64,000 nucleotides of DNA from positions 25,320 to 89,319 of the forward strand of contig JAGVCW010000018.1 in assembly GCA_020059045.1 (NCBI GenBank). The letters are read 5' to 3'. The notes below the pieces were generated by a model, which was not told where the DNA came from, did not search any database, and saw only the letters and a list, made by a program, of their open reading frames with translations. The stretch's first letter is position 1; every line of letters starts with the position of its first letter. The DNA is from Minisyncoccota bacterium. Lineage in GTDB: Bacteria > Patescibacteriota > Minisyncoccia > Phycocordibacterales > Zambryskibacteraceae. Made by a program: the position numbers and the translations under genes. Below are positions 1,733 to 62,916 of this stretch, one piece after another.

Positions 1733-3145
1733 TTAGTGTTTTGAAATCCGTGGTCCTTCCTGTAGGTCCTCAACCAGGTATCCTTTTGATTTTAGAATCT
1801 CACGAATCTCATCTGATTTCTTGAAATCCTTATTTTTTCTTGCATCTTCTCTTTCTGAAATAAGTGCTTGAATATCCGCAGGCAAGTTGTCGATATAAGT
1901 TATTTTCTCCTCCATGAATGAGTTCCCAAGACCGAGCCCCAACACTTTGTCAAATTGCAGAAGAGTATTTCGCTTCATATTTTCATTCAAGTCACTTTTG
2001 AGTACTTCCCAGGCGAGAGCAAGTGCTTCTGCCGTATTTAAATCATCCTCAATTACTGCCTTAAATTTGCTCATGTATTCCTCGTCTGGCGCGGCAGTAG
2101 CTTCCTCAAGCGAATGAAATTGTTTTAACAAATTTTCTAAGCCATTTTGAGCCCCACGGAGAGCCTCCCAGCTAAAGTTGGTTGGGGTTTTATAGTGTGA
2201 CCCAAGGAGTAGGTATCTGAGTGCAATTGGGGAAAATCCTTTCTCAATTATTTCAGATAGGTACACCACATTTCCATCTGATTTAGCAATTTTTGAATCA
2301 TTAATCTGCAAGTGAGCTCGGTGAAGCCAGTATCGCGAAAAAGGAGTTTTACCCGTAGCTGCCTCTGATTGAGCAATCTCGTTGTTGTGATGTATTGAGA
2401 CATGCTCTATACCTCCAGTATGTATATCAATCTGTGGGCCCAGTATTTTTATAATCATCGCAGAACACTCAATATGCCAGCCAGGAAACCCTTGTCCCCA
2501 CGGAGAAATCCATCCAATTTTCTCGTTAAATTTCCAAAGAGCAAAATCTTCTGAGTTGATTTTTTCTTGGTTTAGACCAATACGAGTTTGGCTTTCATCC
2601 TTTTTTAAGTTCAAGCCACCAAGCTCTCCATAGTTAGGAAACTTGGAAGTATCAAAGTAGATTCCATCCGAAGTTTTGTAGGCAAAACCTTTTTCTTCAA
2701 GTGCTTTGATTAATTCAATTTGCTCTGGAATGTAATCACTTGCATATGGGAAGGTGGTACCAACAGTATTTATATTTAATTTTTCTATGTCAGACAGGAA
2801 GATTTCAGCGTACTTTTTTCCAAGTAGTTTCATATTTTCGAGAGTTTGCTCCAGACCATCGTTTCTCAACCCTTTGGCCATTTTGTCTTCTCCTTCGTCT
2901 GGGGTACCAAGATTCTCTCCGGTTAGGTGCCCAAAGTCTGTGAAGTTAATGACTTGTTTTACCTCTAATCCGCCATGCTCGAGTGTGCGACGAAGAATGT
3001 CTGTAAAAACAAACATCGAAAGATTCCCAATATGCTGAACACCGTATACTGTAGGCCCGCAGTTATACATGCTTACCTTACCCTCCTGAATTGGTTTAAA
3101 CTCTTCTTTTTTACCAGTTAATGTATTTGTGAGATGCAAGGTCAT
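1733..3145 (-). CDS. cysS: cysteinyl-tRNA synthetase
   Basis: 470 aa class I aaRS. It carries the HIGH-type motif (CGPTVYGVQHIGN) and a KMSKS-like motif (KIAKSDG), with overall CysRS architecture. Confidence 0.92.
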   Translation of the reverse strand: MTLHLTNTLTGKKEEFKPIQEGKVSMYNCGPTVYGVQHIGNLSMFVFTDILRRTLEHGGLEVKQVINFTDFGHLTGENLGTPDEGEDKMAKGLRNDGLEQTLENMKLLGKKYAEIFLSDIEKLNINTVGTTFPYASDYIPEQIELIKALEEKGFAYKTSDGIYFDTSKFPNYGELGGLNLKKDESQTRIGLNQEKINSEDFALWKFNEKIGWISPWGQGFPGWHIECSAMIIKILGPQIDIHTGGIEHVSIHHNNEIAQSEAATGKTPFSRYWLHRAHLQINDSKIAKSDGNVVYLSEIIEKGFSPIALRYLLLGSHYKTPTNFSWEALRGAQNGLENLLKQFHSLEEATAAPDEEYMSKFKAVIEDDLNTAEALALAWEVLKSDLNENMKRNTLLQFDKVLGLGLGNSFMEEKITYIDNLPADIQALISEREDARKNKDFKKSDEIREILKSKGYLVEDLQEGPRISKH

Positions 3146-3234
3146 ATAGTTGAATAAAGAATAGCGAATATCGAGGGTGGAGTAAACATACTCTTAATTC
3201 ATCATTCCTTATTCCTTACTCTTCCTCCGACATC

Positions 3235-4152
3235 CTACAGCCAGTGCCTATGCTTAAAATAAGCAAACATGAGAAGACAGGCAAAAGCCATAATTCCGAG
3301 TATGTACCAGAAATCGTTCGGTGATCCAATGATAGGGACCGAATCAGCTTCAATGGAAAAGATAGCCGCAATAAGTGTTAGTGGGAATGTCACAAACGCC
3401 ATAATAGTTAGCGTTTTCATGATCTCATTTTCCTTTGTAGAAAGTATTGAATTGTTCGTTTCTCGTAGTTCAGCCACAAACTCCAGGTTATTTGTCAGAA
3501 TATTTTGAACCTTTGAGTACTCGTTTATTACGGACTTAATGTGGTGAGAGAAGTATTCTCCAAACATTCTGTGTCCGAACGAATCAAGCGAATCCAGGAT
3601 CTCCCGATGGAAAACTGTTATTTTTCTGAAGTTCAGTAGTTCGCGGCTCACTTCAGAGAGTGCACGAACCATTTCTTTCTCTTTTCCTTCAAATATATTT
3701 TTTTCAATTTTCGAGAGCCAATTATCAATATACTCAAGTTCGTTGAAAAGTGACATATAAATCTCATTTACAATACCAAAGAAGATTTCCCCGGTAATAT
3801 TTTCACCGAATCCCTTATCAAGTATTGTGTTAACCTCTACCACTTTTGCAAACTTGTCTACAGAGTCTATGGTGTCGTAGCGGGTAGTAATGAGGAAGTT
3901 CTTCCCAATGACGAAATCAATTTCCTGTCGGACCTCACTATCAGTATGGCTGTGTTTGAAAGCGGGGAAATGCAGAATAACGTATATATATTGTTTGTAG
4001 AGCTCTACTCTAGATTTGATAGTAGGGGAGATCAGCTCATGAGCAATATCTCTACTTAAAGAGAATTCCTCCATCACACTTCTGATCTCATCTTCTGTGG
4101 GTTTGGTGATATCTATCCAGACTACACCTCTGTAGTTATATCGATTTATCAT
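3235..4152 (-). CDS. CorA-family divalent cation transporter homologue lacking the GMN signature
   Basis: 305 aa with two C-terminal TM helices and a CorA-like C-terminus (LTIMAFVTFPLTLIAAIFSIEADSVP...YFKHRHWL). The position of the canonical YGMNF loop reads FSIEA instead. Confidence 0.75.
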   Translation of the reverse strand: MINRYNYRGVVWIDITKPTEDEIRSVMEEFSLSRDIAHELISPTIKSRVELYKQYIYVILHFPAFKHSHTDSEVRQEIDFVIGKNFLITTRYDTIDSVDKFAKVVEVNTILDKGFGENITGEIFFGIVNEIYMSLFNELEYIDNWLSKIEKNIFEGKEKEMVRALSEVSRELLNFRKITVFHREILDSLDSFGHRMFGEYFSHHIKSVINEYSKVQNILTNNLEFVAELRETNNSILSTKENEIMKTLTIMAFVTFPLTLIAAIFSIEADSVPIIGSPNDFWYILGIMAFACLLMFAYFKHRHWL

Positions 4153-4285
4153 TCACTTAGAAATTTAAATATGCAACATAATAATTTTAGCATATTCTTT
4201 TGTCATTGTGCATGTATAAACATGGATGCCAAAATTTTCGACTCTGTTATAATGGTTCCTACATGTTTGAAGCTGTCGCGCACAA

Positions 4286-5515
4286 ATGAATACATACAAC
4301 AAAAATATATACTCCGCAGTTGCGCTCGTTGCAGTGTTTATTCTTGTATTTTCACTAGGGTTTCAGTCTGGTGAAAAAAGCCGGCATCTTGGTGTAGAAA
4401 ATGTTGAGCTTCAAAACAAGGAGACTGATACGAAAGTTGAGGCCGATTTCGGAGCTTTCTGGAAAGCTTGGAATCTTATAAACGAAAAGTATGTTCCGGC
4501 CTCATCTACCCTGAAAGCGGTGACGGATGAGGAGAAAGTTTGGGGAGCTATTAGCGGACTTGCATCTTCACTCGATGATCCCTATACCGTGTTTCTTCCT
4601 CCTGTAGAAAATGAAATATTTGAAAGTGATGTGAGAGGTAATTTCGAAGGAGTTGGTATGGAAGTTGGCATTCGTGACGGAGTGCTCACAGTCATAGCGC
4701 CCCTCAAGGGAACCCCAGCTTACAATGCCGGGATTAAAACTGGTGACAGAATTACAAATATTGATGGAGTCACTACATACAATCTATCCACCGAAGAATC
4801 AGTGCTCCTTATACGGGGTGAGAAGGGGACAAGGGTAGTGTTTACAATAATTCGTGAGGGAAGCGACGAGCCTCTCGAGATTGGTGTTATAAGAGACGTA
4901 ATCAATATTCCTACTCTTTCGACAAGTCTACGTGCTGACGGTGTGTTTGTAATAGAGCTTTACAACTTTTCAGAGAATTCTCCGAACCTTTTCCGTGCGG
5001 CACTTCGTGAATTCGTGGACGCAAACACCGACAAGCTACTTCTCGACCTTCGCGGCAACCCAGGTGGTTACCTAGAAGCTTCCATAGATATGGCAAGCTG
5101 GTTCCTAGCACCCGGAAAAGTTGTGGTCCGAGAAGATTTCGCTGGAAAGCAAGAAGAAGTTATCCATCGAAGCAGGGGTTATGACATATTTAATAGCAAT
5201 CTCAAATTTGTAATACTTGTAAACGGCGGCTCCGCTTCTGCATCAGAAATTCTTGCTGGAGCGTTGAAGGAGCACGGTGTTGCTAAGCTTGTGGGGAACA
5301 AAACATTTGGCAAGGGCTCAGTCCAAGAGCTTATCAGTATTACTCCGGAGACGTCCCTCAAGGTCACCATCGCGCGGTGGCTTACTCCAAACGGTGTCTC
5401 AATTTCTGCAAGCGGTGTAGCACCTCACTTTGAAGTCAAGAATACTCCAGAGGATGTGAAAAATGGTGTTGACCGTGAGAAGGATAAAGCCATAGAGGTT
5501 CTCCTTAATTGGTAG
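4286..5515 (+). CDS. ctpA: carboxyl-terminal processing protease (S41 family, PDZ-containing)
   Basis: 409 aa with an N-terminal signal/TM segment, a PDZ-like segment, and the S41 catalytic region LDLRGNPGGYLEASIDMASWF...NGGSASASEILAGALKE. Confidence 0.88.
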   Translation: MNTYNKNIYSAVALVAVFILVFSLGFQSGEKSRHLGVENVELQNKETDTKVEADFGAFWKAWNLINEKYVPASSTLKAVTDEEKVWGAISGLASSLDDPYTVFLPPVENEIFESDVRGNFEGVGMEVGIRDGVLTVIAPLKGTPAYNAGIKTGDRITNIDGVTTYNLSTEESVLLIRGEKGTRVVFTIIREGSDEPLEIGVIRDVINIPTLSTSLRADGVFVIELYNFSENSPNLFRAALREFVDANTDKLLLDLRGNPGGYLEASIDMASWFLAPGKVVVREDFAGKQEEVIHRSRGYDIFNSNLKFVILVNGGSASASEILAGALKEHGVAKLVGNKTFGKGSVQELISITPETSLKVTIARWLTPNGVSISASGVAPHFEVKNTPEDVKNGVDREKDKAIEVLLNW

Positions 5516-5587: not shown

Positions 5588-5715
5588 ATCCCGTTAGAGA
5601 CGGTCGGGGTTAAGAGTAATATACAATAGTAATAAGCGTTTAGAGGTCGAAAAAATCATTTAATAAAAAATCTAATCAAGACAGGAATCGAAAGGTTCCT
5701 TGTCTCTAACGGGAT
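5588..5715 (+). repeat. TIR-bounded ~125 bp element, copy 3 (ATCCCGTTAGA ... TCTAACGGGAT), ending in the rplI start codon
   Basis: A perfect 11 bp inverted repeat at 5588-5598 and 5705-5715. The final AT of the downstream repeat is the first two bases of the rplI ATG (5714). An internal hairpin GACAGGAAtcgaaaggTTCCTTGTC precedes the downstream repeat. Related copies are at 26261-26385 and 54938-55062. Confidence 0.7.
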
Positions 5716-6163
5716 GAAGGTAATACTACTAAAAGATGTGCCAAAGATTGGTAAGAAATATGAGGTCAAGAACGTGGCTGAAGGTCATGCTCTCAATTTT
5801 CTTATACCCCGGGGTCTAGTTGAGACTGCCACAAAGAGCGCTTTAGAGAAGGTTAAGACTTACAAGACTCAAGATGAAGCAAGGAGGAAAATACAGGAAG
5901 ACCTACTTCTGAAAAATATTGCGGATCTCGAGGGTGTAAAGATAGAGATGAGCGAAACAGCGAATGACAAGGGTCACCTTTTTGCAGGTATTCACAAAGA
6001 AGAGATAATCCCAGAAATTTCAAAACAGACTAAGCTTGAGATTCTTCCAGAGCACCTTCTGCTTGATAAGCCTATTAAGTCTGTCGGTGAACATATAATA
6101 GAAGTCAAAATCAGAGATACTCACGCCAAATTCACTCTAATTGTAAGCGCAAAGACAGATTAA
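5714..6163 (+). CDS. rplI: 50S ribosomal protein L9
   Basis: 149 aa, MKVILLKDVPKIGKKYEVKNVAEGHALNFLIPRGL..., canonical L9 N-terminus. Confidence 0.9.
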   Translation: MKVILLKDVPKIGKKYEVKNVAEGHALNFLIPRGLVETATKSALEKVKTYKTQDEARRKIQEDLLLKNIADLEGVKIEMSETANDKGHLFAGIHKEEIIPEISKQTKLEILPEHLLLDKPIKSVGEHIIEVKIRDTHAKFTLIVSAKTD

Positions 6164-6214
6164 ACTAACAAGCGGCAAAGTTATTATAGGCTAAACATAT
6201 AAAAGAAAGACCCG

Positions 6215-6650
6215 GAGCGAAACGCTCACGGGCCCGTACTGCATGTATGCAAAGTCCAATTTCTGGACTGAAAGATCTTAACCCGCTTGCCGAACACCTG
6301 GCTCTCGGCCGGCAAGCGGGTCGTGTTCAGAGGAAGCTCGAGTGCTGCCTCGTCATGGGAGTGGATGCGGTTTCACTCCGATTACAGTGTGCCCGGCCGG
6401 GGCTCCGCATCAGCGCTTCCACCTCGTTGGAGACGGTCGCTTTCCCAAACACTTATTAGACCCTTGCGCCGTTTTTTACCAGCACGCTTAGGTGGTTTGA
6501 GCATGACTCGACAGCCTTCCTTTGAACACCCACCTCGGTTTCTTCCCCGGCTGTGAGGGAGGACTTCTGACTACCCCGAGGTGTCACTTACTTGTTTAAC
6601 CTGCCCTGGAGCTTCTGCCGGGACCCAAAGGGACCCCACAGGCGCTAGCA
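6215..6650 (-). ncRNA. rnpB: RNase P RNA (bacterial type), probable
   Basis: A GC-rich ~430 nt non-coding block. The minus strand carries GCTCCAGGGCAGG (compare E. coli GCUCCAUAGGGCAGG), an upstream GTCCCGGCAGAAGCTCC (P4 5' strand-like), and a 3' ACGACCCGCTTGCCGGCC (compare ACAGAACCCGGCUUA). A terminator-like hairpin plus U-run lies at its 3' end (about 6210-6235). The only ORFs here are short and overlapping. Confidence 0.55.
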
Positions 6651-6800
6651 GATATTTGTTCCTACATGTCCTGTAACTAGCTCCAGAGCATTCTATTATC
6701 TATTATAGCATGCCCACTTTTTTTGTCAAGCAATTTAGCATGAAAATAGAAAAAACTTTGCTAGACAATCAAAATAAGCCTTAAAACAAAGCTTTTTTCA

Positions 6801-7081: not shown

Positions 7082-7354
7082 CTACACCACCTGTATTACC
7101 TTCTTCACAATAATTTTATTATTAAAGTGTATTTTTCTTTTACTTTTCATTTGGACAATCCCATCCTTGAGTGCAAATATAGTGTGGTCTCTGCCAATAG
7201 AAGTGTTTTTTCCTGGCATTACATCTGTGCCTCTCTGACGCACGAGAATAGACCCAGTATACGTCTGGGTTCCGGGTGTGACCTTAATCCCCAGATATTT
7301 TGGGTTTGAGTCTCTTCCGTTTTTTGTCGATCCTCCCGCTTTCTTTGTTGCCAT
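7082..7354 (-). CDS. rpmA: 50S ribosomal protein L27
   Basis: 90 aa, [25 protein letters not shown]..., canonical L27. Confidence 0.92.
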
Positions 7355-9902: not shown

Positions 9903-11186
9903 ATGATTAGAAGGATAAATCAAAAGCTCTCGCATCTTCAGACCGACCTATCCGTCGGCTTCTTTCTTGCATGGCGTCAGGTCAAGCGATCAAGCCTTGC
10001 GACTACATTGCTTATCATTTTTGTGATGATGCTCACGTTTCTCAATCTCGTTGTTGTGCGAGGTATTCTTGTGGGTCTTCTACAGGGTTCCACAGAAGCT
10101 TACAAGGCACGATTTGCAGGCGACATCATACTTACCAATCTGCCTAAGAAAGATTTTATTGAGAACAGCCCTTCAGTTATAGAAGTAGCAGAGAACCTTC
10201 CTTGGGTAGAGCATCTCACGTACAGATATGTTGACGGTGGCACAGTTGAAGCTGGTTACAAAACAAGAGTGAGTCTCACCGATGACCCCAATTCCACTGC
10301 CGGCTCAGTTGTTGGTATTAATCCAGAAGTTGAAGACAGAGCCACAGGACTTGCGGGCACAGTTCTTGAGGGTAGGTATCTTACTCCCGAGGATTCAGAG
10401 GGCATCCTAATTGGTGCCAATATGCTCAAGAAATATCTTGATATAGAAGCTCCAGGGCTCACTCTTCTTGAAAATGTTGCAGTGGGTGACAAAGTCAGAC
10501 TTACGATAGGTGATACTCGCAAGGAGTTTGTTATTAGAGGGTTTCTTCAAAGCAAGGTAGACCAAGTCGATTTCCGGATGTTTATACTTGATTCTACTTT
10601 CCGCAACATGACAGGTCGGAGTGATTTCAATGTTGACGAAGTTACTCTTGTCTTGAAACCCGGCAGTGATCCCGAGCTTGCGAAGAGTGCTCTCATTGCA
10701 TCCGGCGTAGACAAGTACGCTCGGGTTCAAACTTGGGAAGAGTCTCTACCCAAGTTTCTTCTTGATATTCAGAACACCTTCGGTCTACTTGGAAACGTAG
10801 TTGGCTCAATCGGTCTTGTCGTGGCATCAATCACTATTTTCATTGTTATCTTCGTTAACGCCATAACTAGGAAGAAATATATTGGAATTCTAAAGGGTAT
10901 TGGAATTGATAGTACAGCTCTAGAATTCACATATGTGATGCAGTCAGCTTTTTATGCCGTTGCTGGTACACTTCTTGGTCTTTTAGTTCTTTATGGATTT
11001 CTAGTGCCGTTTGTGACGGCGCACCCTATTAAATTTCCGTTTAGTGATGGAATACTTGTTGCAGAAATACCTAATACTCTCGTAAGGGCTGGGCTCCTGC
11101 TTCTTGCTACCCTAATCGCAGGATATATTCCCGCACGTATTGTAGTGAAGCAGAATACACTGGACGCTATTCTTGGTAGAAAATAA
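9903..11186 (+). CDS. ABC transporter permease, FtsX/MacB-like
   Basis: 427 aa. It has an N-terminal TM helix, a large periplasmic domain and C-terminal 3-TM FtsX-like helices. An AAGGA RBS sits upstream. Confidence 0.82.
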   Translation: MIRRINQKLSHLQTDLSVGFFLAWRQVKRSSLATTLLIIFVMMLTFLNLVVVRGILVGLLQGSTEAYKARFAGDIILTNLPKKDFIENSPSVIEVAENLPWVEHLTYRYVDGGTVEAGYKTRVSLTDDPNSTAGSVVGINPEVEDRATGLAGTVLEGRYLTPEDSEGILIGANMLKKYLDIEAPGLTLLENVAVGDKVRLTIGDTRKEFVIRGFLQSKVDQVDFRMFILDSTFRNMTGRSDFNVDEVTLVLKPGSDPELAKSALIASGVDKYARVQTWEESLPKFLLDIQNTFGLLGNVVGSIGLVVASITIFIVIFVNAITRKKYIGILKGIGIDSTALEFTYVMQSAFYAVAGTLLGLLVLYGFLVPFVTAHPIKFPFSDGILVAEIPNTLVRAGLLLLATLIAGYIPARIVVKQNTLDAILGRK

Positions 11187-11868
11187 AATGATTAAAGCAC
11201 TAAATTTAAGGAAATCTTTTAGAAGCGGAGACTCAGAGCTTCATGTATTGAAGGGAATTTCTTTTGATGTAAAAAGTGGAGAGTTTGTAGCTATAACTGG
11301 TCGCTCAGGATCGGGTAAGAGTACTCTCATGTATCAGCTCGGGCTCCTCGACAATCCCACTTCCGGAGAGGTATATATCGATGGAGTCGAGGCCACACAG
11401 ATTAGCGCAGATGAAAGAACGAAGATGCGGTTAAGCGAGCTCGGGTATATTTTTCAAGATTATGCTTTAATGCCAGAGCTAACTGCACTTGAAAATGTTT
11501 TGATTCCGCTCTTGATGCAGGGTCTGACACGGAAAGATGGTGAGAAGAAAGCAGCAGAATCACTTGAAAGAATTGGCTTGGGTCATAGACTAGAGAACAC
11601 TCCTAGCCAGTTATCAGGTGGAGAGCAGCAACGTGTGGCTATTGCTCGGGCAGTTGCTCATGAGCCGAAAATTATTTTTGCAGATGAGCCTACTGCAAAT
11701 TTGGATAGCGAAACCTCCCAAGTGGTGTTACAAAACTTTATAAGTCTCAATAAGGAAGGTCAAACCATCCTTATGGTGACTCATGAACCTGAGTATGCTA
11801 ATCTTACTGATCGTATTATTACTCTTTCAGATGGTCTTATTGTTTCCGATGTGAAATTAAAGAAATAG
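11173..11868 (+). CDS. ABC transporter ATP-binding protein (MacB/LolD-like)
   Basis: Walker A GRSGSGKST, signature LSGGEQQRVAIARA and Walker B IIFADEPT. It overlaps the permease by 14 nt. Confidence 0.92.
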   Translation: MVENKMIKALNLRKSFRSGDSELHVLKGISFDVKSGEFVAITGRSGSGKSTLMYQLGLLDNPTSGEVYIDGVEATQISADERTKMRLSELGYIFQDYALMPELTALENVLIPLLMQGLTRKDGEKKAAESLERIGLGHRLENTPSQLSGGEQQRVAIARAVAHEPKIIFADEPTANLDSETSQVVLQNFISLNKEGQTILMVTHEPEYANLTDRIITLSDGLIVSDVKLKK

Positions 11869-11877
11869 AAAACTAAA

Positions 11878-13404
11878 ATGAAAGAAAAATTCAATAAAAT
11901 TATCGCCTGGATAAAGGCAAACAAGAAGAAGTCTATAGCACTTGCTCTCGTAGTCCTCCTTATTCTTTGGAGTGTGCTCAGAGAAGGTGCAGTAGACTAT
12001 GAAGATGTTTTAGCAGTACGCGGAACTGTGGTCCAAGAAGTTTCAGTTACCGGCAAAACTAGGGCTGTGGGAGAAGTTGATCTTGCATTCGAGCGAGGTG
12101 GCACTGTGGCAGGGATCGGCGCAGAAGTTGGTTCCACTGTATCTAAAGGGCAAACCATAGTCCGTCTAAACCAAGGAGAGCTTCTAGCAGATCTCAACTC
12201 TGCACGAGCGACTCTTTCACAAGAGGAGATTAAGCTTGCAGAAATTAGGAAAACAAGTCCAAGCGCACGTAAGGATGCGATGGAGGGCCTTGTGGCATCT
12301 CTACGTGATGCTTATGCGAAAGTTGATGATGCAGTGAGGAACAACATTGATCAATTCTTCAAGAATAAGGGCACTGCAAGTATGAACATTGAATTTGCGT
12401 TTATTGATGGAAACACAGTCTATACATTTCCCATCAACTCTGACTTGCGTCTCGACATAAACACAAAGCGAGCAGAACTTGAAAGCAAACTAACATTCTG
12501 GCATAACTCACTTCTTTCTCTTGATTCTAAAACCGATTTCGACGGGGACATTAGGACTGCCAAGGATACCATCGCTGAAGCCCAAGTATTACTAAATAGA
12601 GTCGCAACAGCCGCCAATTCGCTTGTTGCAACAGAGTTTCAATACGAAGCAACTGTAAGTGGTTACAAGGATACTGTAGCGACAGCTCGCTCCTCTACAA
12701 ATACTGCACTCACAAATCTGCTTACAGCTGAGAGCAAGTTCGAGAATGCGCCAACCCAAGTGACAACGTCGCAAGGCGTAGGTCTTGATGAGGTTCTTTC
12801 TCAGGAGGCGCGGGTAGGGCAGTATCGAGCTCAAGTTGCTTCAGCAGAGGCAAGACTTGCAGAAACTGTCATTAGCTCTCCAATCGCAGGTATTCTCACA
12901 AAGCAGGATGCAAGAATTGGCGAGGCGGTTACGGCCGGCACTATACTCGTATCAGTTATACAAGATGCTGGTTTTGAAATAGAAGCGAACGTCTCCGAAG
13001 TTAGTGTTGGAAAAGTTGCACTAGGCAATGCCGTCTTAGTTTCCTTTGACGCATTCCCAGGTGAGGAGTTCGCAGGTGAGCTGTTCTACATTGAACCATC
13101 AGAAACTATTGTTGACGGAGTAGTCAATTACAAAATAAAAGTCATGCTAAGAAATGAGATCCCAGGACTTAAGAGCGGACTCACGACCAATTTGAAAGTG
13201 AAGACTGCTGAAAAGCCTGATGTTTTGAAGGTTCCTCAGTTTGCAATAATTACAGAAAATGGTTTGTCCTATGTAGAGAAAGTAGTGGGTGATAACCTCG
13301 AAAGAAGCGAGGTGGTTGTAGGTCTTAGAGGTAGTGATGGAACTGTAGAGATAATTTCAGGAATAAGTGAAGGCGACACGGTAAGATTCAGCAAGTCCAA
13401 GTAA
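11878..13404 (+). CDS. efflux periplasmic adaptor (HlyD/membrane-fusion family)
   Basis: 508 aa with an N-terminal TM helix, a long coiled-coil and a C-terminal beta-barrel/lipoyl-like region (VISSPIAGIL...), typical of MacA/HlyD adaptors. Confidence 0.78.
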   Translation: MKEKFNKIIAWIKANKKKSIALALVVLLILWSVLREGAVDYEDVLAVRGTVVQEVSVTGKTRAVGEVDLAFERGGTVAGIGAEVGSTVSKGQTIVRLNQGELLADLNSARATLSQEEIKLAEIRKTSPSARKDAMEGLVASLRDAYAKVDDAVRNNIDQFFKNKGTASMNIEFAFIDGNTVYTFPINSDLRLDINTKRAELESKLTFWHNSLLSLDSKTDFDGDIRTAKDTIAEAQVLLNRVATAANSLVATEFQYEATVSGYKDTVATARSSTNTALTNLLTAESKFENAPTQVTTSQGVGLDEVLSQEARVGQYRAQVASAEARLAETVISSPIAGILTKQDARIGEAVTAGTILVSVIQDAGFEIEANVSEVSVGKVALGNAVLVSFDAFPGEEFAGELFYIEPSETIVDGVVNYKIKVMLRNEIPGLKSGLTTNLKVKTAEKPDVLKVPQFAIITENGLSYVEKVVGDNLERSEVVVGLRGSDGTVEIISGISEGDTVRFSKSK

Positions 13405-18994: not shown

Positions 18995-20143
18995 TTAGTT
19001 AAACATTTCCACCTGCTCGAGGTCATTTACTTTTTCCTCCTTTTCACTATGGGGAGGTTTTTTCTCCAGTGAAGGAACAAAAGGTAGAGATATCCCTGAT
19101 TGATCAAAGAGGTCAAGAGGTTTTTGCCTCTTCCCACGAATCACCACAAGACCTTGCACGTAATAATTGGCAGACGGTATTGCCCACTGACATTTCTTTT
19201 CAATAGGGCAGCGACCACATGTTCGAAAGTATCGTGTTTCCTCTGTCTTGCTCCATCGCACTATTTTTTCTGTAATTCGAGTACGACGAGCTTCGTATTT
19301 CTCTGCAATAGAGGAGGCATTCGAGGGGCTATCACGACAAAACTCACGCGAAAGGTTCCAAAGAGCGTCAGCCAACTCTAGAGTCTCAACAGAGTTATTT
19401 TGACAATATTTGAGAGTGAGTATTCTCGCTTCGCGGCTTAGTCTATTAATACTTAGGGCAGTTCCAGGCTGAGTGGAGTCCACATAGAGTATTCCAGTTG
19501 ATACTAAGTCTCGCAGAATATGGAAATCTACAGGCACAGGGTAGGGAGGTGGCTTGACAATACCTGCATCTTCAAAAAACCATGTAAGCATGCTTGCCAT
19601 CTTGTGTCGAAAGCCGAAGAATCCATGCGGTTCCTCTGGGCCAGTCCTTTTCCCACGGCGGAACAGAATCTTACAAAGGTCCTCGTAAGTTTCTGCATTC
19701 TTGTAGAAAAGCACGGGGTTACCGTCCCAGTGTCGAGCAAGCTTGTGCATGTTATGCACCCAATGCCCACTAACATTTAGAGCATCAAAACTCAATCCAT
19801 TTTTACTAAGACTGTCAAAAACGCGACTTCGCAGCTCCGAAGAATTACCATTCAAGTGTTCGAAACTTTCAGGCTCAAACATCCATTGCTCTCGATCATA
19901 AAGTTGTGACAAAGCAATAAGAGCAGTTCCACTGTCTATCTTTCCTTTCATGTAGAAACATGAAAGTTTAAGAAATCTTGCATGTTCAGTGCTTCCCCAT
20001 GGGAATGTTTTCGGGATAATTTTCGGTCCCTGAACCCTTACTACATTATCGTATGGGGGGAGCTTGTTTCGCCAAGCATGTAGGAGAATGCCGAATACCT
20101 CATCGGCCAACTCCCAGTTAGTTTGGATTGCCGGTGCGCTCAC
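18995..20143 (-). CDS. endonuclease III-like HhH-GPD DNA glycosylase/lyase, atypically long
   Basis: 382 aa. The segment FGFRHKMASML...PVPVDFHILRDL parallels EndoIII GVGRKTANVV...AVDTHIFRV (HhH Lys and catalytic Asp). A C-terminal Cys cluster CGRCPIEKKC is present (C-x2-C-x5-C). Confidence 0.5.
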   Translation of the reverse strand: MSAPAIQTNWELADEVFGILLHAWRNKLPPYDNVVRVQGPKIIPKTFPWGSTEHARFLKLSCFYMKGKIDSGTALIALSQLYDREQWMFEPESFEHLNGNSSELRSRVFDSLSKNGLSFDALNVSGHWVHNMHKLARHWDGNPVLFYKNAETYEDLCKILFRRGKRTGPEEPHGFFGFRHKMASMLTWFFEDAGIVKPPPYPVPVDFHILRDLVSTGILYVDSTQPGTALSINRLSREARILTLKYCQNNSVETLELADALWNLSREFCRDSPSNASSIAEKYEARRTRITEKIVRWSKTEETRYFRTCGRCPIEKKCQWAIPSANYYVQGLVVIRGKRQKPLDLFDQSGISLPFVPSLEKKPPHSEKEEKVNDLEQVEMFN

Positions 20144-43238: not shown

Positions 43239-44360
43239 TCACTTTTTAATTTCCAGCCACGTTCCATTGACAAGAACCTCACTTCTTTCGCTTGTTTCAA
43301 CTTTTACCACAACGGCCTGGAATAATGGATCCGAAAGACTCTCTACTGCACCGGCATAATCTCCTAGTGTAGGTTCAAGGTTACCTGTCTGAGGAGAGCT
43401 CACAGTTTGAATTGTAGCTTTTACTCTGTTGTTAAAATCTGATGCAGCCATATGCAAACCAAGTTTAGGAATAGCGACTGGGTTCTCTTTTTTGATACGA
43501 GCCCCTTCAAGTCGGTAATAAACCCAAAACCAAGTGGTAATGCGAAGTGGTGTACCCTCCTTTGTTTTCATTGCAGGTCCTTTTACTTCTGCAATTTCAA
43601 GTCTGGCATACTGCTTCCAGTCAAAGTCTTTGTCCACTGAAACACTTACAATTCCCTGTCCAAGGGACCTTGTTGTTTTTACAAAAGAAATCTGCACATT
43701 GCTATTTAAGCTTCTTTCTTCTAGTGTCCCTAATGCCCAGTCTCCGCTTACCAGAAACACTCCATCATCAAAAGTAGGCGGCTCTCTTGAGACGGCAGTA
43801 ACAATGAAGTTCGAGGAAAAGGCAAGTAGAAAAGTTGGTAATAGGGCACGAAAAACATAGCTTGCTCTATACTCTCTTGGGCTTCTAGACCTTGGAGAAA
43901 AAAATAGCAGTACACCAGTAATACCTAGAACAGCAAGACATAGTATTAGCCCCTTTACTCCAAGAAACAGAAATAGAGCGGCAACAAGCAAATAGATCTT
44001 GGGATACTCAAGCAAACTCTCCCATGCCAATCTGAGTGGGTAGAAGAAGTTTGATAGAGCTTGCTTCGCGCTCGCCATAATACCTCTTGCAAAGTCCGAA
44101 AGCATCCAGCCAAGCCTTTCATATTTGCCTGGGCCTCTATCTGCAAGCAGGAGTAGTTCTTCGTAGAGAACCATATCCTCGCCTATCTTTATTGAGGCAT
44201 CAACATCTAATCGAGGCAGGTTAGCGAATTGCTTCTCAGTTTCCTCAGCAAGTCTCAGGAATGCCAGCTTCCCAGTTTCAGTCTGCGCTTCATTTGCTAA
44301 CTCTCTCCATGTTAAGGCGGGATTCTCACTGTGCCTTCTCAGAAACTCTCTTTTGTTCAT
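43239..44360 (-). CDS. hypothetical membrane protein
   Basis: 373 aa with a cytoplasmic N-terminus, 2-3 TM helices and a large C-terminal domain. It sits within the dnaK-dnaJ interval. Confidence 0.45.
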   Translation of the reverse strand: MNKREFLRRHSENPALTWRELANEAQTETGKLAFLRLAEETEKQFANLPRLDVDASIKIGEDMVLYEELLLLADRGPGKYERLGWMLSDFARGIMASAKQALSNFFYPLRLAWESLLEYPKIYLLVAALFLFLGVKGLILCLAVLGITGVLLFFSPRSRSPREYRASYVFRALLPTFLLAFSSNFIVTAVSREPPTFDDGVFLVSGDWALGTLEERSLNSNVQISFVKTTRSLGQGIVSVSVDKDFDWKQYARLEIAEVKGPAMKTKEGTPLRITTWFWVYYRLEGARIKKENPVAIPKLGLHMAASDFNNRVKATIQTVSSPQTGNLEPTLGDYAGAVESLSDPLFQAVVVKVETSERSEVLVNGTWLEIKK

Positions 44361-48216: not shown

Positions 48217-49416
48217 ATGCCAAGTGATATCTCAGTCTTCGAGTCTATCGTAGAAGGTGACGACGAGCTCAAGAAGTTAATTGAAGAAATCGTACCAGAG
48301 CTCAAAATTCCTGTCCCTAAGCCCCAGAAACCAATTGGCTTCTTTAAAGCTATGAGTCAGGCCGTCAAGCATTGGTGGGGATTTAATTCTCCGGATGACG
48401 GATGGCGAGAAATTAAGGCATATCGGTACATGATGAGAAAACTGTGGGTGCAAAATGGCGCAAATATTGGCCTTGGTCTTGGACTAGCGAGTGGTGAAAA
48501 CCTGCTTGGTCTTGTTGCTCTAGGAGCAGCAGCGTCTTTTCTTATAGTCCACCTTAACCGAGACACGGAAGAACTTACAGGTGAGGTAATTCAAGGAAAA
48601 GGCTCTACAATTTGGTTCTTTTTTTCGTACATATACCTATTGTCCTTTGGTATGATTAACATGTTGCCAGGTCAAACTGACGGCATGTGGCTTATCAGTT
48701 TTATATTTCCTGTGTGGAGCTGGATCATATACGCCATAATGGAAATGAGAAAGTCGAGAGATAGGGCATCTAAGCCACACATTCGACCACCTCTTCCAGA
48801 TATCGAAGAGATTCAAAGACGATTCCTAGAAAAAATGAAGAGCGTTGTTGAGGAATCACAAAAAATGATTGTTGGTTCAGGATCCGAAGTTGGGAGACAA
48901 GTCGAAACGCTTAAAGGAAAGCAGTACAAAGCAGAGAACATTTTAAGAAGGTTTGAGGAACATTGTAAGAGAAGTCCCGATAACCAGGAGTACAAGCGTC
49001 AGTGTAACTTAGCGCGAGAGACAATACTCCTCTTCAAGGGTGACCTTTCAGCTCTTGAAGCTGAAAGAACAGAAGTTCTCCGTCAGTGTGGTGAAGTAGT
49101 ATCATTCATTCCACAAGAAACTGAACGTCTCGAGGTTGGCCAGCTTATCTCCGAGCTTGCAATTCTACGAGGCGAGGCACTCGAATCAAGGCAAGTATCA
49201 CGCTCGATCCTCATGGAAGCGGTAAGACCAATGATTGAGAAGTTTGTTCCACTTGCTGAGGCACGAGAGCGACTCCTAATGCATGCCAATGCTCTCATTG
49301 ATGGAGAACCAGGCAGCCTTGCAGGCTTTATTGGAGAAGCTGAATCTAGTGGTCAGAGGATTGCAGGTGTCGAAGGAGTTGAGCGCAAGCTGAGACTCCT
49401 CACAGGCGGAGAGTAG
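48217..49416 (+). CDS. hypothetical membrane protein with a C-terminal coiled-coil region
   Basis: 399 aa. A Gly-rich amphipathic segment plus 2 TM helices is followed by a long charged helical region. No family recognised. Confidence 0.5.
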   Translation: MPSDISVFESIVEGDDELKKLIEEIVPELKIPVPKPQKPIGFFKAMSQAVKHWWGFNSPDDGWREIKAYRYMMRKLWVQNGANIGLGLGLASGENLLGLVALGAAASFLIVHLNRDTEELTGEVIQGKGSTIWFFFSYIYLLSFGMINMLPGQTDGMWLISFIFPVWSWIIYAIMEMRKSRDRASKPHIRPPLPDIEEIQRRFLEKMKSVVEESQKMIVGSGSEVGRQVETLKGKQYKAENILRRFEEHCKRSPDNQEYKRQCNLARETILLFKGDLSALEAERTEVLRQCGEVVSFIPQETERLEVGQLISELAILRGEALESRQVSRSILMEAVRPMIEKFVPLAEARERLLMHANALIDGEPGSLAGFIGEAESSGQRIAGVEGVERKLRLLTGGE

Positions 49417-55669: not shown

Positions 55670-55891
55670 TTAGAGTCTTCTAATAATTCTTCCTTTACCA
55701 CCATATGGATCAATTTCTACTTCTACACTATCACCGACAAGAATACGGATTTTATGCATACGCATTTTGCCCGATAGATACGCGAGGAATTCCTCTGCAC
55801 CGTTTTCAGGCATTACTTTAAACAAAATATTTGGGAATGCTTCGGTTACTTTTCCTATAATTATTTCTTGTTTTTTTGTTGGGTCAGGCAT
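55670..55891 (-). CDS. infA: translation initiation factor IF-1
   Basis: 73 aa S1-like OB fold, ...[51 protein letters not shown]... Confidence 0.9.
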
Positions 55892-57225
55892 TATTGTTCG
55901 TTCGTTGTAAGGTCTGCCGCTTCAATCTTAATATTTTTTATATCGGTAGGAAATGCTCTTTTCCAGAATGGCCTTACTACGGCACTGGCTCGTTCAATTG
56001 TGGGATAGTTTGTCATAATTTCATTAAGATTCTTTTTTGGCTGACCTGCTACATCCGACATAATCTTTTCAGCGTCAAACTGTGAGACAAAATTGATAGG
56101 CCCACTCACTGTGAATTTTAAGTTCACATCAGTTTTTGGGTTGAGACTTTCTTTGTTTTCAATCGCAAATGCAAGTGATTCAATATTCGATATCATTACA
56201 TCACTTTTAGGTAGATTAGTTGCGAGATTCTCTGCAAGGTACTTAGACAATTCTTCACGGTTAAATATTACTCCATTGAGAATTCCTCGACGATTTATGA
56301 CCACAGATGACCCCTTGGCATCCGACTGTGGTAGTGCTTCGAATGAGTAAAACATTCCACCGCTATAAAGTATGAAATCCTTTGGCAGTTGAGCCACTGC
56401 TTCCTTCTCAAGCTCTACTATAAGTGCAGCCTCCAATTCAGCTTGGACGGTCGTAAGTGTCGCTGGTGCAACCTTTTTTACATTTCCTACAAAGCCTCCA
56501 CTCATTTCTCCTTTTGATCTCGCATACACCGCCTTAAAACGTGGGTCATCCTTAAAGCCAGGTATAGTGAAATCCTTTAGTCCGACGTTGTACTTCTCAC
56601 CTGGCTCATCCGCATAAACGGTAACTTCTATACTTCCGGGTGTCATCTGTGCACCTTGGCCAGTTCTGCCAGGCACTACCACAGACTCGTTGATTCTATA
56701 TATAAGTCCTTCTGGGGTTTCGAATCTTGTATTTTTTATTAGTCGCTGTGGGTTCGCATCAAAAGTGTTGTATATGATTATTCTTCCGCTCGCCTTCTCC
56801 TCGACGTGCTCCTCACCTGATGTCTCTACAGTTTGTCCAAGCTCCTTACTAATCGTTACAATCTGGTATGAAACATTGGCCACATCTGCGGTAAGTGCTG
56901 CAGAAAGTACCGTTGTACCGTCAGATGCAACAACTTCTTGCGTAGGAACAATGGTAATTGTTGCTCCCTTAAACAGTGAAAGAACTGCAAAGAAAACAAT
57001 AACCAAAGCGAGGCCTACCGCAATCCAAATCCACTTTCTTCCAGAGCCTGAAGAATAAGACTCATTTTCATACTGGTAAACCTTTGGTTGCTCACTTTGT
57101 TGTGGCTTTTTAGGTACAGAACTATTCATGGGTGGAACCGGCTTACCCATTCTCGCAGGTACGGGAATATTTCTTATTGATCTTTTTTCAGGGGGTATAA
57201 CATCCTGCAAAATATTTTTGGACAT
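55891..57225 (-). CDS. hypothetical single-pass membrane protein (Pro-rich cytoplasmic N-terminus, large extracytoplasmic domain)
   Basis: 444 aa with a TM helix at about residues 63-85. Its stop overlaps the infA start. Possibly PilN/O-like or FtsQ-like, given the upstream actin-fold ATPase. Confidence 0.4.
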
Positions 57226-62070: not shown

Positions 62071-62916
62071 CTAGCCAAAGAGAGTTTCCTTAGTTGATTC
62101 GCCCTTTGTTTCCGATTTTAAATTTCTATTTTTCCCTTTTTCATTATTATCTATTGCATTTCCCCTCATCACATCTCCGAGAGATTCTACATAACCACAA
62201 TAATCACATTCCTCACCCGCCTTCGGAATTCTTCCGTCCATTAGGCATGTTTTCATTTTGCTAATAGTTTTTGGTATCCAATCTGTGTTTCCCTTGTATG
62301 GGATTATAGTTACATCAAATTCTAGTTTGCCATCAAGTGCCTTTTTGTCAGTTTTACCATTCACATATACAAAGTAGCCCGTATCTGAAACTTTAAATTT
62401 ATTTTGTTTGAAGAGCCATTGGTATATCTCCATCTGTCTCTTGTACTGTATCTTCCACTCATCATCAAGTGTAATCTCTTCGTCCTTACTTGTTGCTTTG
62501 TAATCTACAATGATTAATTCTTCCTGTGGACTTACCCACACATCATCCACTCCTCCACGAATAATGAGATTATTTTCCTTATCATGAAACGATATGCCCC
62601 TGCGTAATGCATCACGCCACTCTTCCATTCGCGAGTCCTGAAGTGGCACCGCGTCAATTCCGTATGATTTCATTAGTGGGTGCACAGTCTTCTCGGCTCT
62701 ATGAATGTCAAATTCTTTCTTAAGTAGTGTGTCCACTGCATTGTTAAGTGTCAGAGGAAAACTTGCAGGCCTTCCAACACCAAGTCTCACATCAAGATAA
62801 AAGCATCTTGGACATTGAATAAAGAGGTCTATTTTTGAGCGAGACAACCTAAATGGCTCAGTTGCATTTGGGTCGAAGAGATTCCTTGTTCTTCTAGGAT
62901 TATAGTACTTACTCAT
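62071..62916 (-). CDS. Cas4/RecB-like PD-(D/E)xK nuclease with an Fe-S cysteine set (stand-alone)
   Basis: 281 aa with an N-terminal CPRC. The motif GGVDDVWVSPQEELIIVDYK matches D...E.VDYK. C-terminal C...CDYCGY completes a 1+3 Cys arrangement typical of Cas4/AddB nuclease domains. Confidence 0.6.
   Translation of the reverse strand: MSKYYNPRRTRNLFDPNATEPFRLSRSKIDLFIQCPRCFYLDVRLGVGRPASFPLTLNNAVDTLLKKEFDIHRAEKTVHPLMKSYGIDAVPLQDSRMEEWRDALRRGISFHDKENNLIIRGGVDDVWVSPQEELIIVDYKATSKDEEITLDDEWKIQYKRQMEIYQWLFKQNKFKVSDTGYFVYVNGKTDKKALDGKLEFDVTIIPYKGNTDWIPKTISKMKTCLMDGRIPKAGEECDYCGYVESLGDVMRGNAIDNNEKGKNRNLKSETKGESTKETLFG

What the first reader, a model, noticed from the sequence alone, without database searches (positions are those of the whole stretch)
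3235..4152. CorA-family protein in which the universally conserved GMN selectivity motif is replaced by SIE
The alignment to CorA's C-terminal two-helix region is clear (LTIMAFVTFPLTLIAAIF-SIEAD-SVP versus LTI..TIF.PLTFIAGIY-GMNFE-YMPE; the basic C-terminal KHRHWL matches the CorA KKKWL). The periplasmic-loop GMN, which is essential for Mg2+ selectivity in CorA, Mrs2 and Alr1, is absent.

This implies altered ion specificity (compare ZntB with GVN) or a non-transporting regulatory homologue.
Basis: partly seen in the sequence, partly recalled or inferred. Interest (0 to 1): 0.5.

Follow-up and report, generated by a model that had tools for sequence, protein, structure and literature searches.

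The report
CorA channel with Ser-Ile-Glu replacing GMN
This is an intact CorA-type magnesium-channel gene from a tiny 'candidate phyla radiation' bacterium in which the supposedly universal Gly-Met-Asn pore-mouth motif is Ser-Ile-Glu, and in its whole bacterial lineage that motif has been replaced again and again while the rest of the channel stays conserved.

Summary
The ORF at 3235-4152 (minus strand, 305 aa) matches Pfam CorA over its full length (E=1e-48). Its predicted fold matches T. maritima and M. jannaschii CorA (TM-score 0.75-0.82). S266-I267-E268 lies exactly under G312-M313-N314 in a gap-free alignment, and there is no G-x-N anywhere in the C-terminal 90 residues.

It is not an isolated oddity or a decaying gene.
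- **Orthology:** in 79 of 80 related Paceibacteria (Patescibacteria/CPR) species, the single corA sits in the same place, between a Ctp peptidase gene and cysS.
- **Motif loss:** only 40 of those 80 keep GMN. The others carry SMD, SMN, QID, DIN, QMN, SMR, TIP and more. By contrast, 120 of 120 neighbours of T. maritima CorA keep YGMNF.
- **Selection:** variant clades are under the same purifying selection as GMN clades (dN/dS 0.03-0.10 versus 0.04-0.13), and pore-lining residues are equally conserved.
- **Route to SIE:** living relatives show a stepwise series, GMN > GMD > SMD > SME > SIE.

The most likely reading is that this is still the cell's gated pentameric cation channel, with a glutamate ring replacing the asparagine ring. 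Its ion selectivity is unknown. I class it as a new variant of a known kind, of moderate interest.

The parts
3235..4152 (-). corA-like gene, 305 codons plus stop
   Evidence: ORF list. Pfam CorA E=1.2e-48. Fold match to TmCorA and MjCorA. Identical to the JGI protein P0390, named 'magnesium transporter'.
3559..4152 (-). N-terminal cytoplasmic alpha/beta/alpha domain plus helical bundle (residues 1-198)
   Evidence: AF2 secondary structure: strands 2-91, helices 96-197. W12, D14, P18, E22 and E39 are at least 90% conserved, so the true start is the ATG at 4152 and not the M27 used in the NCBI protein P0001.
3355..3558 (-). Stalk helix continuing into pore-lining TM1 (residues 199-266)
   Evidence: One continuous helix 199-266 in the model. 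It contains the nearly invariant E228-L-R230-E231-T232-N233, N242, M245, L248, T249 and P257. These align with TmCorA D277 (E231), N288, M291, L294, T295 and P303.
3349..3357 (-). S266-I267-E268 (TCC ATT GAA), the position of the GMN selectivity-filter motif
   Evidence: Gap-free alignment to TmCorA G312-M313-N314, alignment to orthologues, codons.
3316..3354 (-). Extracellular TM1-TM2 loop (residues 267-279, IEADSVPIIGSPN), net charge -2 over residues 266-279
   Evidence: Loop in the AF2 model. P273 is invariant and G276 is constrained. Positions 270, 271 and 277 are the most variable columns of the protein. Loop charge.
3250..3315 (-). TM2 (residues 280-301), beginning with the conserved D280-F281-W282
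   Evidence: Helix 280-301. D280, F281 and W282 show only 7, 4 and 8 changes on the tree.
3238..3255 (-). Basic C-terminal tail K300-H-R-H-W-L305, equivalent to the CorA KKKKWL 'basic sphincter'
   Evidence: Aligned to TmCorA 346-351. K300, K/R302, K/R303 and W304 are conserved in both the GMN and non-GMN sets.
4178..4206 (-). Promoter-like site (ATGACA-17-TATTAT, 10 of 12) in the 133-nt gap between corA and the divergent ctp gene
   Evidence: Consensus scan only; not evidence of function.
1733..3145 (-). cysS (cysteinyl-tRNA synthetase), immediately downstream on the same strand; likely operon partner
   Evidence: Pfam tRNA-synt_1e E=9e-82. cysS follows corA in 79 of 80 related species. The estimated spacer is 0 or less in 20 loci and 30 nt or less in 35.
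4286..5515 (+). Ctp (S41 C-terminal processing peptidase), divergent upstream neighbour; synteny anchor
   Evidence: Pfam Peptidase_S41 plus PDZ. Upstream of corA in 77 of 80 related species.

Best explanation
The gene is the single, syntenic corA orthologue of a Paceibacteria (Patescibacteria/CPR) bacterium. Its product most likely still assembles into a CorA-type pentameric gated cation channel and remains the cell's route for divalent cations, presumably Mg2+.

The unusual part is the outer pore mouth. In canonical CorA this is a ring of five Asn side chains above five Gly carbonyls (GMN). Here it would be a ring of five Glu268 carboxylates, with Asp270 two residues further on, above Ser266.

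I infer that this acidic ring captures hydrated divalent cations electrostatically. The rest of the conduction path is retained: polar rings N242, T249 and T259, hydrophobic gate M245 and L248, cytoplasmic acidic ring E231, and the basic C-terminal tail.

The motif arose by single steps that are still visible in relatives (GMN > GMD > SMD > SME > SIE). In this lineage the GMN positions are no longer under their usual constraint.

Shown: homology, fold, exact motif position, orthology, purifying selection, pore conservation and recurrent motif replacement. Inferred: pentamer formation, conduction, the role of the Glu ring, and Mg2+ as the substrate.
For: - **Family and fold:** Pfam CorA E=1e-48. 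AF2 pLDDT 86 with TM-score 0.75-0.82 to TmCorA and MjCorA.
- **Motif position:** gap-free alignment.
- **Orthology:** corA lies between ctp and cysS in 77-79 of 80 species, with one copy per locus and no two loci from the same assembly. The same synteny holds in metagenome loci L082-L084.
- **No paralogue nearby:** no second CorA, MgtE or MgtA in the 64-kb window.
- **Purifying selection:** dN/dS is 0.07 for QID, 0.03-0.10 for DIN, 0.07-0.09 for SMN, 0.08 for QMN and 0.065 for SMD, against 0.04-0.12 for GMN-GMN pairs (0.12-0.13 for mixed GMN/QMN pairs).
- **Not degenerate:** the query deviates at 3 of 87 columns that are at least 85% conserved, which equals the family median.
- **Pore conserved:** pore residues are equally conserved in 107 GMN and 82 non-GMN sequences. 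Changes on the tree: E228 1, R230 0, T232 0, N233 0, N242 3, P257 0, M245 12, L248 11. Positions 266 and 268 have 28 each, against a column median of 32.
- **Stepwise path:** codons are GGT-ATG-GAT (GMD, L082), AGC-ATG-GAC (SMD, L081), AGC/AGT-ATG-GAA (SME, L083/L084) and TCC-ATT-GAA in the query.
- **Published data:** TmCorA N314A still conducts but with weakened Mg2+ block, and human MRS2 N362A keeps about 50% of its current, so the Asn ring is not required for permeation itself (PMC10462007).
Against: - Mutagenesis of canonical family members shows that disrupting GMN abolishes or impairs function. Ala substitutions at 312-314 of TmCorA gave no measurable currents (PMC12933068). A GMN>AAA mutant of yeast Mrs2 reduced cell proliferation on non-fermentable medium (PMC11919701).
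- Orthologues in the same clade carry basic residues (SMR, SMK, GMK, AMR) or proline (TIP, ALP, AFP) at the Asn position. That is hard to reconcile with a cation-attracting ring being needed there at all.
- Non-GMN sequences deviate slightly more at conserved columns (median 5 against 3, p=1e-4), which hints at some relaxation.
- Only 64 kb of the genome was available, so another Mg2+ transporter elsewhere cannot be excluded.
- There are no functional data for any member of this clade.
Confidence: 0.5

Rival explanations
1. The protein is still a channel but with changed substrate. The Glu/Asp-lined mouth alters selectivity, so it handles another cation (Ca2+, Mn2+, Zn2+, Co2+ or Ni2+), acts as a poorly selective cation pore, or runs in the export direction. 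On this view the many motif classes in the clade are different specificities.
For: The GMN site is the proposed selectivity filter (PMC3629940; PMC6972854). N314A weakens Mg2+ block of Na+ current (PMC10462007). Motif classes are heritable and stable within clades: SMD in 18 sequences, QID in 13, DIN in 6. The Qx[DE] class has co-evolved Arg272, present in 15 of 16 against 0 of 107 GMN forms. That suggests local functional tuning and not drift. The query has the most acidic loop of all classes, with net charge -2.
Against: Positions 266 and 268 change at the rate of an average column (43rd percentile), which looks more like lost constraint than directed specialisation. The S-M-D class has no class-specific partner residue elsewhere. 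The gene keeps one conserved genomic position and one copy, which fits a housekeeping role. A tiny genome still needs Mg2+ uptake, and no alternative importer was seen in the window.
Confidence: 0.27
2. The protein is a non-conducting derivative. It keeps the CorA fold and the Mg2+-sensing cytoplasmic domain but no longer conducts ions. It would serve as a sensor, a regulator or a membrane scaffold.
For: In canonical CorA and Mrs2, most GMN substitutions give no transport. Basic or proline residues at the Asn position in some orthologues would not favour cation entry.
Against: A non-conducting protein would not need to preserve pore-facing polar and gate residues, yet these are as conserved in non-GMN forms as in GMN forms. 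TM1, P257, the loop anchors P273/G276/D280-F-W and the basic tail are all retained. dN/dS is as low as in GMN clades. No partner or output domain is present; the protein is 305 aa of CorA only.
Confidence: 0.12
3. The motif is an assembly or sequencing artefact, or the gene is decaying. On this view SIE is an error in one metagenome-assembled genome, or the gene is on its way to becoming a pseudogene.
For: The exact SIE sequence is seen in only one contig. The look-up of encoding contigs found no second copy.
Against: The ORF is intact and full length, with only 3 of 87 deviations at conserved columns. The three codons differ from the nearest relatives by several coordinated non-synonymous and synonymous changes, which is not a pattern that sequencing errors produce. 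Closely related, independently assembled genomes carry SMD, SME and GMD at the same place.
Confidence: 0.03

Closest known systems
Thermotoga maritima CorA (PDB 4I0U, 3JCF, 8TM*), the reference Mg2+/Co2+ channel of the CorA/MIT family (Pfam PF01544)
   Same: Same domain order and fold: alpha/beta/alpha cytoplasmic domain, long stalk helix continuous with TM1, short loop, TM2 and a basic tail ending in WL. TM-score is 0.75-0.82. The alignment across the membrane part is gap-free. N288, M291, L294, T295, P303, T305 and P319 are identical, and there is an acidic residue at D277.
   Different: Overall identity is only about 22-23%. SIE replaces GMN, A269 replaces F315, and VPII replaces MPEL. The M1-site residue D253 aligns with Ser207 (from the gap-free alignment). 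The N-terminus is about 45 residues shorter. The score against TIGR00383 corA is 141.5 bits, below the 200.75 cutoff.
GMN-bearing Paceibacteria CorA orthologues (for example P0004; the Zambryskibacteria protein P0049; the Campbellbacteria complete genome CP011215, locus L035)
   Same: 50-63% identical, same length, same ctp | corA-cysS gene order, and the same conserved ELRETNN, N242, M245, L248, P257, P273, G276 and DFW features.
   Different: They read F-G-M-N-T where the query reads F-S-I-E-A.
ZntB (Zn2+ transporter of the same superfamily, with a GVN/GIN motif)
   Same: Same superfamily, and a natural example of a deviation in the motif's middle residue.
   Different: ZntB keeps Gly and Asn. 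The query scores 24.5 bits against the ZntB model NF007092 (cutoff 292).
Plant MRS2/MGT paralogues with AMN or AIN in place of GMN (sugarcane SsMGT7 and SsMGT8, rice OsMRS2)
   Same: Natural family members in which the Gly, or the Gly and Met, are replaced (PMC6345045).
   Different: They retain the Asn. They are extra paralogues in multigene families, not the single orthologue, and they are eukaryotic.
Acidic-ring selectivity filters in unrelated Mg2+/Ca2+ channels (MgtE, TRPM6/7, Orai, MCU, and the Glu ring of cation-selective pentameric ligand-gated channels); from general knowledge, not tested here
   Same: A ring of carboxylates at a pore entrance selects or concentrates cations. This is what a pentameric Glu268 ring would resemble functionally.
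   Different: There is no homology; this is an analogy only.

Membership tests
CorA / MIT superfamily by homology (Pfam PF01544) | Full-length match to the family profile above the curated cutoff | tested here: met
   166.4 bits against a cutoff of 27. Residues 9-300 match profile positions 3-291 of 292.
CorA / MIT superfamily by homology (Pfam PF01544) | Fold: N-terminal alpha/beta/alpha domain, long stalk helix continuous with TM1, and two C-terminal TM helices | tested here: met
   AF2 pLDDT 86 and pTM 0.75. Foldseek E about 1e-16 and TM-score 0.75-0.82 to TmCorA and MjCorA chains.
2-TM-GxN class (the signature-defined family: CorA, ZntB, Mrs2, Alr1) | Gly-x-Asn (x = Met, Val or Ile) at the end of TM1 | tested here: not met
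   S266-I267-E268 occupies the position, and there is no G-x-N in residues 216-305. Only the hydrophobic middle residue conforms.
2-TM-GxN class | Homopentameric assembly with a central pore | not testable with these tools
   Only a monomer could be modelled.
2-TM-GxN class | Divalent-cation (Mg2+/Co2+/Ni2+/Zn2+) transport | not testable with these tools
   Needs complementation or flux assays.
CorA proper (NCBIfam TIGR00383 equivalog; YGMNFxxMPEL type) | Score above the equivalog cutoff | tested here: not met
   141.5 bits against a cutoff of 200.75.
CorA proper (NCBIfam TIGR00383 equivalog; YGMNFxxMPEL type) | MPEL loop motif after GMN | tested here: not met
   S-V-P-I-I aligns with Y-M-P-E-L, and only the Pro is kept. 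The whole CPR clade has xxPIVG instead.
CorA proper (NCBIfam TIGR00383 equivalog; YGMNFxxMPEL type) | Basic C-terminal tail ending in WL (KKKKWL) | tested here: met
   KHRHWL aligns with KKKKWL and is conserved in the clade.
ZntB | Match to the ZntB equivalog model; GVN/GIN motif | tested here: not met
   24.5 bits against a cutoff of 292. No GxN is present.
CmaX | Sequence similarity to CmaX (PDB 7NH9) | tested here: not met
   Only E=0.013 over the C-terminal 130 residues, far weaker than the match to TmCorA.
Paceibacteria syntenic corA orthologue group (defined here) | About 300-310 aa, located between divergent ctp and co-directional cysS, with ELRETNN, P257, P273, G276 and D-F-W conserved | tested here: met
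   Window gene order, 80 species loci, conserved columns.

The most novel reading that the evidence does not exclude
In Paceibacteria the CorA scaffold may have been freed from the GxN filter that defines the family everywhere else. It may have radiated into channels with chemically different pore mouths: acidic (SIE, SMD, QID, AIE, LVE), basic (SMR, SMK, AMR, NLR) and proline-containing (TIP, ALP, AFP). These could have genuinely different ion specificities, possibly including non-divalent or even anion conduction. Selectivity or gating would then be taken over by the invariant E228-L-R-E-T-N-N segment at the inner end of the pore. The SIE protein would be one natural member of a previously unrecognised GxN-less CorA subfamily.
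Probability: 0.25. Interest if true: 0.75.

Novelty: new variant of a known kind. Interest (0 to 1): 0.55.

Why it matters
GMN is treated as the hallmark and selectivity filter of the whole CorA/Mrs2/Alr1 family, and laboratory mutations of it inactivate the canonical proteins.

Here a whole bacterial lineage has replaced it roughly twenty times in its only corA gene while keeping that gene under strong purifying selection. This supplies a ready-made series of natural variants, including single-step intermediates (GMN, GMD, SMD, SME, SIE). With these, one can test what the motif actually does: selectivity, hydration stripping or loop packing. One can also test which other residues make it dispensable.

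It also warns that motif-based annotation ('no GMN means not a Mg2+ channel') and metabolic inference for CPR genomes may be wrong in either direction.

Tried and rejected
- **Shifted motif or alignment error:** rejected. The HMMER alignment is gap-free, orthologues at 50-63% identity align unambiguously, no GxN is present, and the model helix ends at residue 266.
- **Paralogue freed by duplication:** no second CorA in the window, only one CorA match per 20-kb locus, and no two of the 80 loci come from one assembly. A distant paralogue elsewhere in the genome could not be excluded.
- **Metagenome noise:** rejected by the control, in which 120 of 120 TmCorA neighbours have YGMNF.
- **Pseudogenisation:** rejected by dN/dS and by the count of deviations at conserved columns.
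- **Simple AT mutational pressure:** G>S and G>D fit G-to-A pressure, but N>D is A-to-G and G>Q needs two or more changes. Mutational bias alone therefore does not explain the pattern.
- **Riboswitch control:** no M-box or any other Rfam family in the window.
- **Source record:** not recoverable.
- **Palombo et al. 2013** (the GMN mutagenesis paper): not held in the library, so its content is not used.
- **Tree quality:** NJ trees with Fitch parsimony are crude. The figure of 19-24 transitions is an estimate and not a firm count.
- **Scope of synteny check:** the 150 cluster representatives at 50% identity were not checked for synteny and may include paralogues.

Full report
**Observation.** The window carries a 305-codon ORF at 3235..4152 on the minus strand. 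Pfam CorA (PF01544) matches it end to end, with E=1.2e-48 and 166 bits against a cutoff of 27. phmmer against PDB sequences finds T. maritima CorA at E=2e-21. Query residues 215-305 align to TmCorA 261-351 without a gap. This puts F265-S266-I267-E268-A269 under Y311-G312-M313-N314-F315, P273 under P319, and KHRHWL under KKKKWL. The codons are TCC ATT GAA at 3349-3357. There is no G-x-N in the last 90 residues. An AlphaFold model built on 114 homologues (pLDDT 86, pTM 0.75) has one continuous helix from 199 to 266, a loop at 267-279 and a second membrane helix at 280-301. Foldseek returns TmCorA and MjCorA chains with TM-scores of 0.75-0.82.

**Who the relatives are.** A search of 5.8 billion proteins gave 1781 hits. 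The best 120 (48-100% identity) come from Patescibacteria/Parcubacteria metagenome genomes. At the motif position they read GMN 75, SMD 12, SMN 9, QID 7, SLN 4, QIN 3, and singletons or pairs of SME, SMG, GMD, SVN, QVD, QIE, SMY and GMS. SIE occurs only in the query. A scan of one genome per GTDB species returned 80 loci from 80 different assemblies, including Zambryski-, Kaiser-, Campbell-, Yonath- and Taylorbacteria, that is, Paceibacteria. Among these the counts are GMN 40, SMD 8, QID 7, SMN 6, DIN 6 and QMN 3, plus QIE, QVD, GMS, TMH, SMR, GMK, GIN, AIP, TIP and SIN. In the 150 nearest cluster representatives at 50% identity (32-51% identical to the query), only 57 have GMN. The rest include many x-[IMLV]-[DE] forms (AIE, LIE, LVE, QVE, TME, QME, GME, ALD, AMD, AID, SID, TID), basic forms (SMR x4, SMK, AMR, NLR, GLR, SIR) and proline forms (TIP, ALP, AFP, NMP, TFP, SIP). 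These samples are centred on a variant query, so the percentages are not unbiased. The 150 representatives were not checked for synteny.

**Control.** The same survey around TmCorA gave 120 of 120 proteins with YGMNF. These were 56-98% identical and drawn from Thermotogae, Synergistetes, Deltaproteobacteria, Acidobacteria, archaea and others. The plasticity is therefore specific to this clade and is not an artefact of metagenomic data.

**Orthology, not paralogy.** In the window the gene lies between a divergent S41/PDZ Ctp peptidase (4286-5515) and a co-directional cysS (1733-3145). rplI, rpmA and an RNase T-like exonuclease lie beyond. The same order is found in the related species: cysS is downstream in 79 of 80 and ctp upstream in 77 of 80. 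The estimated corA-cysS spacer is 0 or less in 20 loci and 30 nt or less in 35. Each locus has one CorA match. Three metagenome loci that carry the query's closest relatives show the same order. A profile of the family finds no second copy in the 64-kb window. A Pfam survey of the window's 48 larger ORFs finds housekeeping genes and no MgtE or MgtA. GMN and non-GMN forms are thus the same gene in the same place.

**Selection.** Nei-Gojobori dN/dS was computed for close pairs where dS is not saturated. The values are 0.07 (QID), 0.03-0.10 (DIN), 0.07-0.09 (SMN), 0.08 (QMN) and 0.065 (SMD). GMN-GMN pairs give 0.04-0.12 and mixed GMN/QMN pairs 0.12-0.13. The query departs from consensus at only 3 of 87 columns that are at least 85% conserved (I236 for L, E241 for Q, and a one-residue insertion). 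That equals the family median. Non-GMN sequences as a group deviate a little more (median 5 against 3, Mann-Whitney p=1e-4).

**Where constraint sits.** I used a neighbour-joining tree of 190 sequences, built without the motif and loop columns, and counted Fitch changes per column. The median column has 32 changes. Positions 266, 267 and 268 have 28, 18 and 28, so the 'hallmark' Gly and Asn behave as average sites. Constraint is much stronger elsewhere: E228 (1), R230 (0), T232 (0), N233 (0), N242 (3), T249 (7), P257 (0), L248 (11), M245 (12), P273 (0), G276 (8), D280 (7), F281 (4) and W282 (8). Loop positions 270, 271 and 277 are the most variable in the protein. Residues aligned with TmCorA pore and gate positions are equally conserved in 107 GMN and 82 non-GMN sequences. 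These are N288=N242, M291=M245, L294=L248, T295=T249, P303=P257, T305=T/S259 and D277=E231.

**History of the motif.** Parsimony places GMN at the root. It needs 19-24 switches between GMN and non-GMN over 50 bootstrap trees, against 50-71 if tip states are shuffled. There are 23 departures from GMN and 4 returns. The tree method is crude, but multiple origins are independently evident from the codons. Ser is AGY in all 14 SMD and SMN loci, Gln is CAR, Asp is GAY, and Thr, Ala and TCN-Ser occur elsewhere. They are also evident from close mixed pairs, such as L038 (GMN) and L040 (QMN) at 80% identity. The query's nearest relatives give a single-step series: GGT-ATG-GAT (GMD, 66% identical), AGC-ATG-GAC (SMD, 69%), AGC/AGT-ATG-GAA (SME), then TCC-ATT-GAA in the query. 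The change from AGY to TCC cannot happen in one step without leaving Ser. The position has therefore continued to change and is Ser again. The Qx[DE] class has co-evolved Arg272 (15 of 16, against 0 of 107 in GMN forms), a likely charge partner. The S-M-[DE] class has none. The query adds D270, giving its loop the most negative net charge seen, -2 per subunit.

**Mechanism.** In published structures the Asn314 side chains and Gly312 carbonyls form the entry site for partly hydrated Mg2+ (PMC3629940; PMC12933068; PMC11919701). Reviews describe GxN as the one feature shared by all family members (PMC9276622; PMC6972854). Alanine substitutions at 312-314 gave no measurable currents in one study. 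A GMN>AAA Mrs2 mutant reduced cell proliferation on non-fermentable medium. On the other hand, TmCorA N314A is reported to conduct with weakened Mg2+ block, and MRS2 N362A keeps about half its current (PMC10462007). Putting this together with the evolutionary data, the most likely reading (confidence 0.5) is that the protein is still a gated pentameric cation channel and the cell's divalent-cation entry route. In it, a Glu268 ring with Asp270 nearby would replace the Asn ring as the electrostatic capture site. Other pore elements, especially the invariant ELRETNN segment containing E231, would carry more of the functional load in this clade. Pentamer formation, conduction and substrate are inferred and not shown.

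**Rival readings.** They are a channel with altered specificity (0.27), a non-conducting derivative (0.12) and an artefact or decaying gene (0.03). The presence of basic and proline variants in orthologues is the main unexplained fact. It argues either that the mouth ring does not matter here or that functions have diverged.

**Comparison with known families.** By homology and fold this is a CorA/MIT-superfamily protein, closest to the TmCorA type. It fails the defining signature of the 2-TM-GxN class. It also falls below the TIGR00383 corA equivalog cutoff (141.5 against 200.75) and far below the ZntB cutoff (24.5 against 292). I therefore file it as a GxN-less derivative of CorA and not as a CorA proper. 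The natural deviations I could find in the literature are plant MGT paralogues with AMN or AIN, which keep the Asn (PMC6345045). Searches combining CorA with Patescibacteria, or using phrases for a missing or replaced GMN, found no description of this clade's behaviour. The library lacks most subscription journals, including Knoop 2005 and Palombo 2013, so prior mention cannot be ruled out.

**Verdict.** This is a new variant of a known kind. The single gene is of modest interest. The lineage-wide, recurrent loss of GMN in a single-copy, purifying-selected corA is the more notable result and gives a natural test set for the long-standing question of why GMN is conserved. Interest: 0.55.

Noticed in passing
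window 6200-6700 (gap between rplI 5714-6163 + and rpmA 7082-7354 -): A GC-rich island of about 500 nt (57-60% GC in a 41% GC window) with only spurious-looking ORFs. It folds much better than shuffled sequence on both strands (z = -5.5 each). There is no Rfam hit even at E<=1, no tRNA or tmRNA, and no blastn or nhmmer match in 84 related loci, where this gap varies from about 110 to 1000 nt. It is a candidate unannotated structured RNA of unknown strand and kind.
   Followed up: partly
window 1-64000: No tRNA gene (ARAGORN) and no Rfam family at gathering threshold in the whole 64 kb. This is unusual for a stretch that includes ribosomal-protein, rpoA and several aminoacyl-tRNA synthetase genes.
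   Followed up: no
window 1733-4152 (-) and loci L001-L080: corA is followed by cysS on the same strand in 79 of 80 Paceibacteria species, often with overlapping or nearly abutting stop and start codons. In the window the spacer is 89 nt. Cysteinyl-tRNA synthetase is a Zn-dependent enzyme (general knowledge). Whether the linkage is functional or just conserved gene order is unknown.
   Followed up: partly
window 4075-4152 (-): The NCBI protein for this gene (P0001, 279 aa) starts at Met27. The JGI call (P0390, 305 aa) and the conservation of W12, D14, P18 and E22 in homologues show that the true start is the ATG at 4152.
   Followed up: yes
L035 9456-9755 (Candidatus Campbellbacteria CP011215.1): A 300-nt island of 60% GC in a 33% GC genome lies between ctp and corA, directly upstream of corA. 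It could be an RNA gene or a regulatory element.
   Followed up: no
alignment positions 266-272 of the Qx[DE] class (for example L003, L006, L031, L036, P0038): Orthologues with Q-I-D or Q-V-D at the motif almost always have Arg four residues after the Asp (R272 in 15 of 16, against 0 of 107 GMN forms). This is a clear co-variation and suggests a salt bridge at the pore mouth.
   Followed up: partly
window 9903-13404 (+): A MacB/FtsX-like permease, an ABC ATPase and a HlyD-like membrane-fusion protein lie in a row. This is a tripartite-efflux-type operon, conserved next to the exonuclease gene in the relative L082.
   Followed up: no
window 62071-63743 (-): A PD-(D/E)XK nuclease family ORF and an Mrr_cat restriction-endonuclease-domain ORF are adjacent and overlapping. 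This may be a defence or restriction module.
   Followed up: no
window 18995-20143, 43239-44360, 48217-49416, 55891-57225, 57242-58435: Five ORFs of 370-450 aa have no Pfam match at E<=1e-3 or 1e-4.
   Followed up: no
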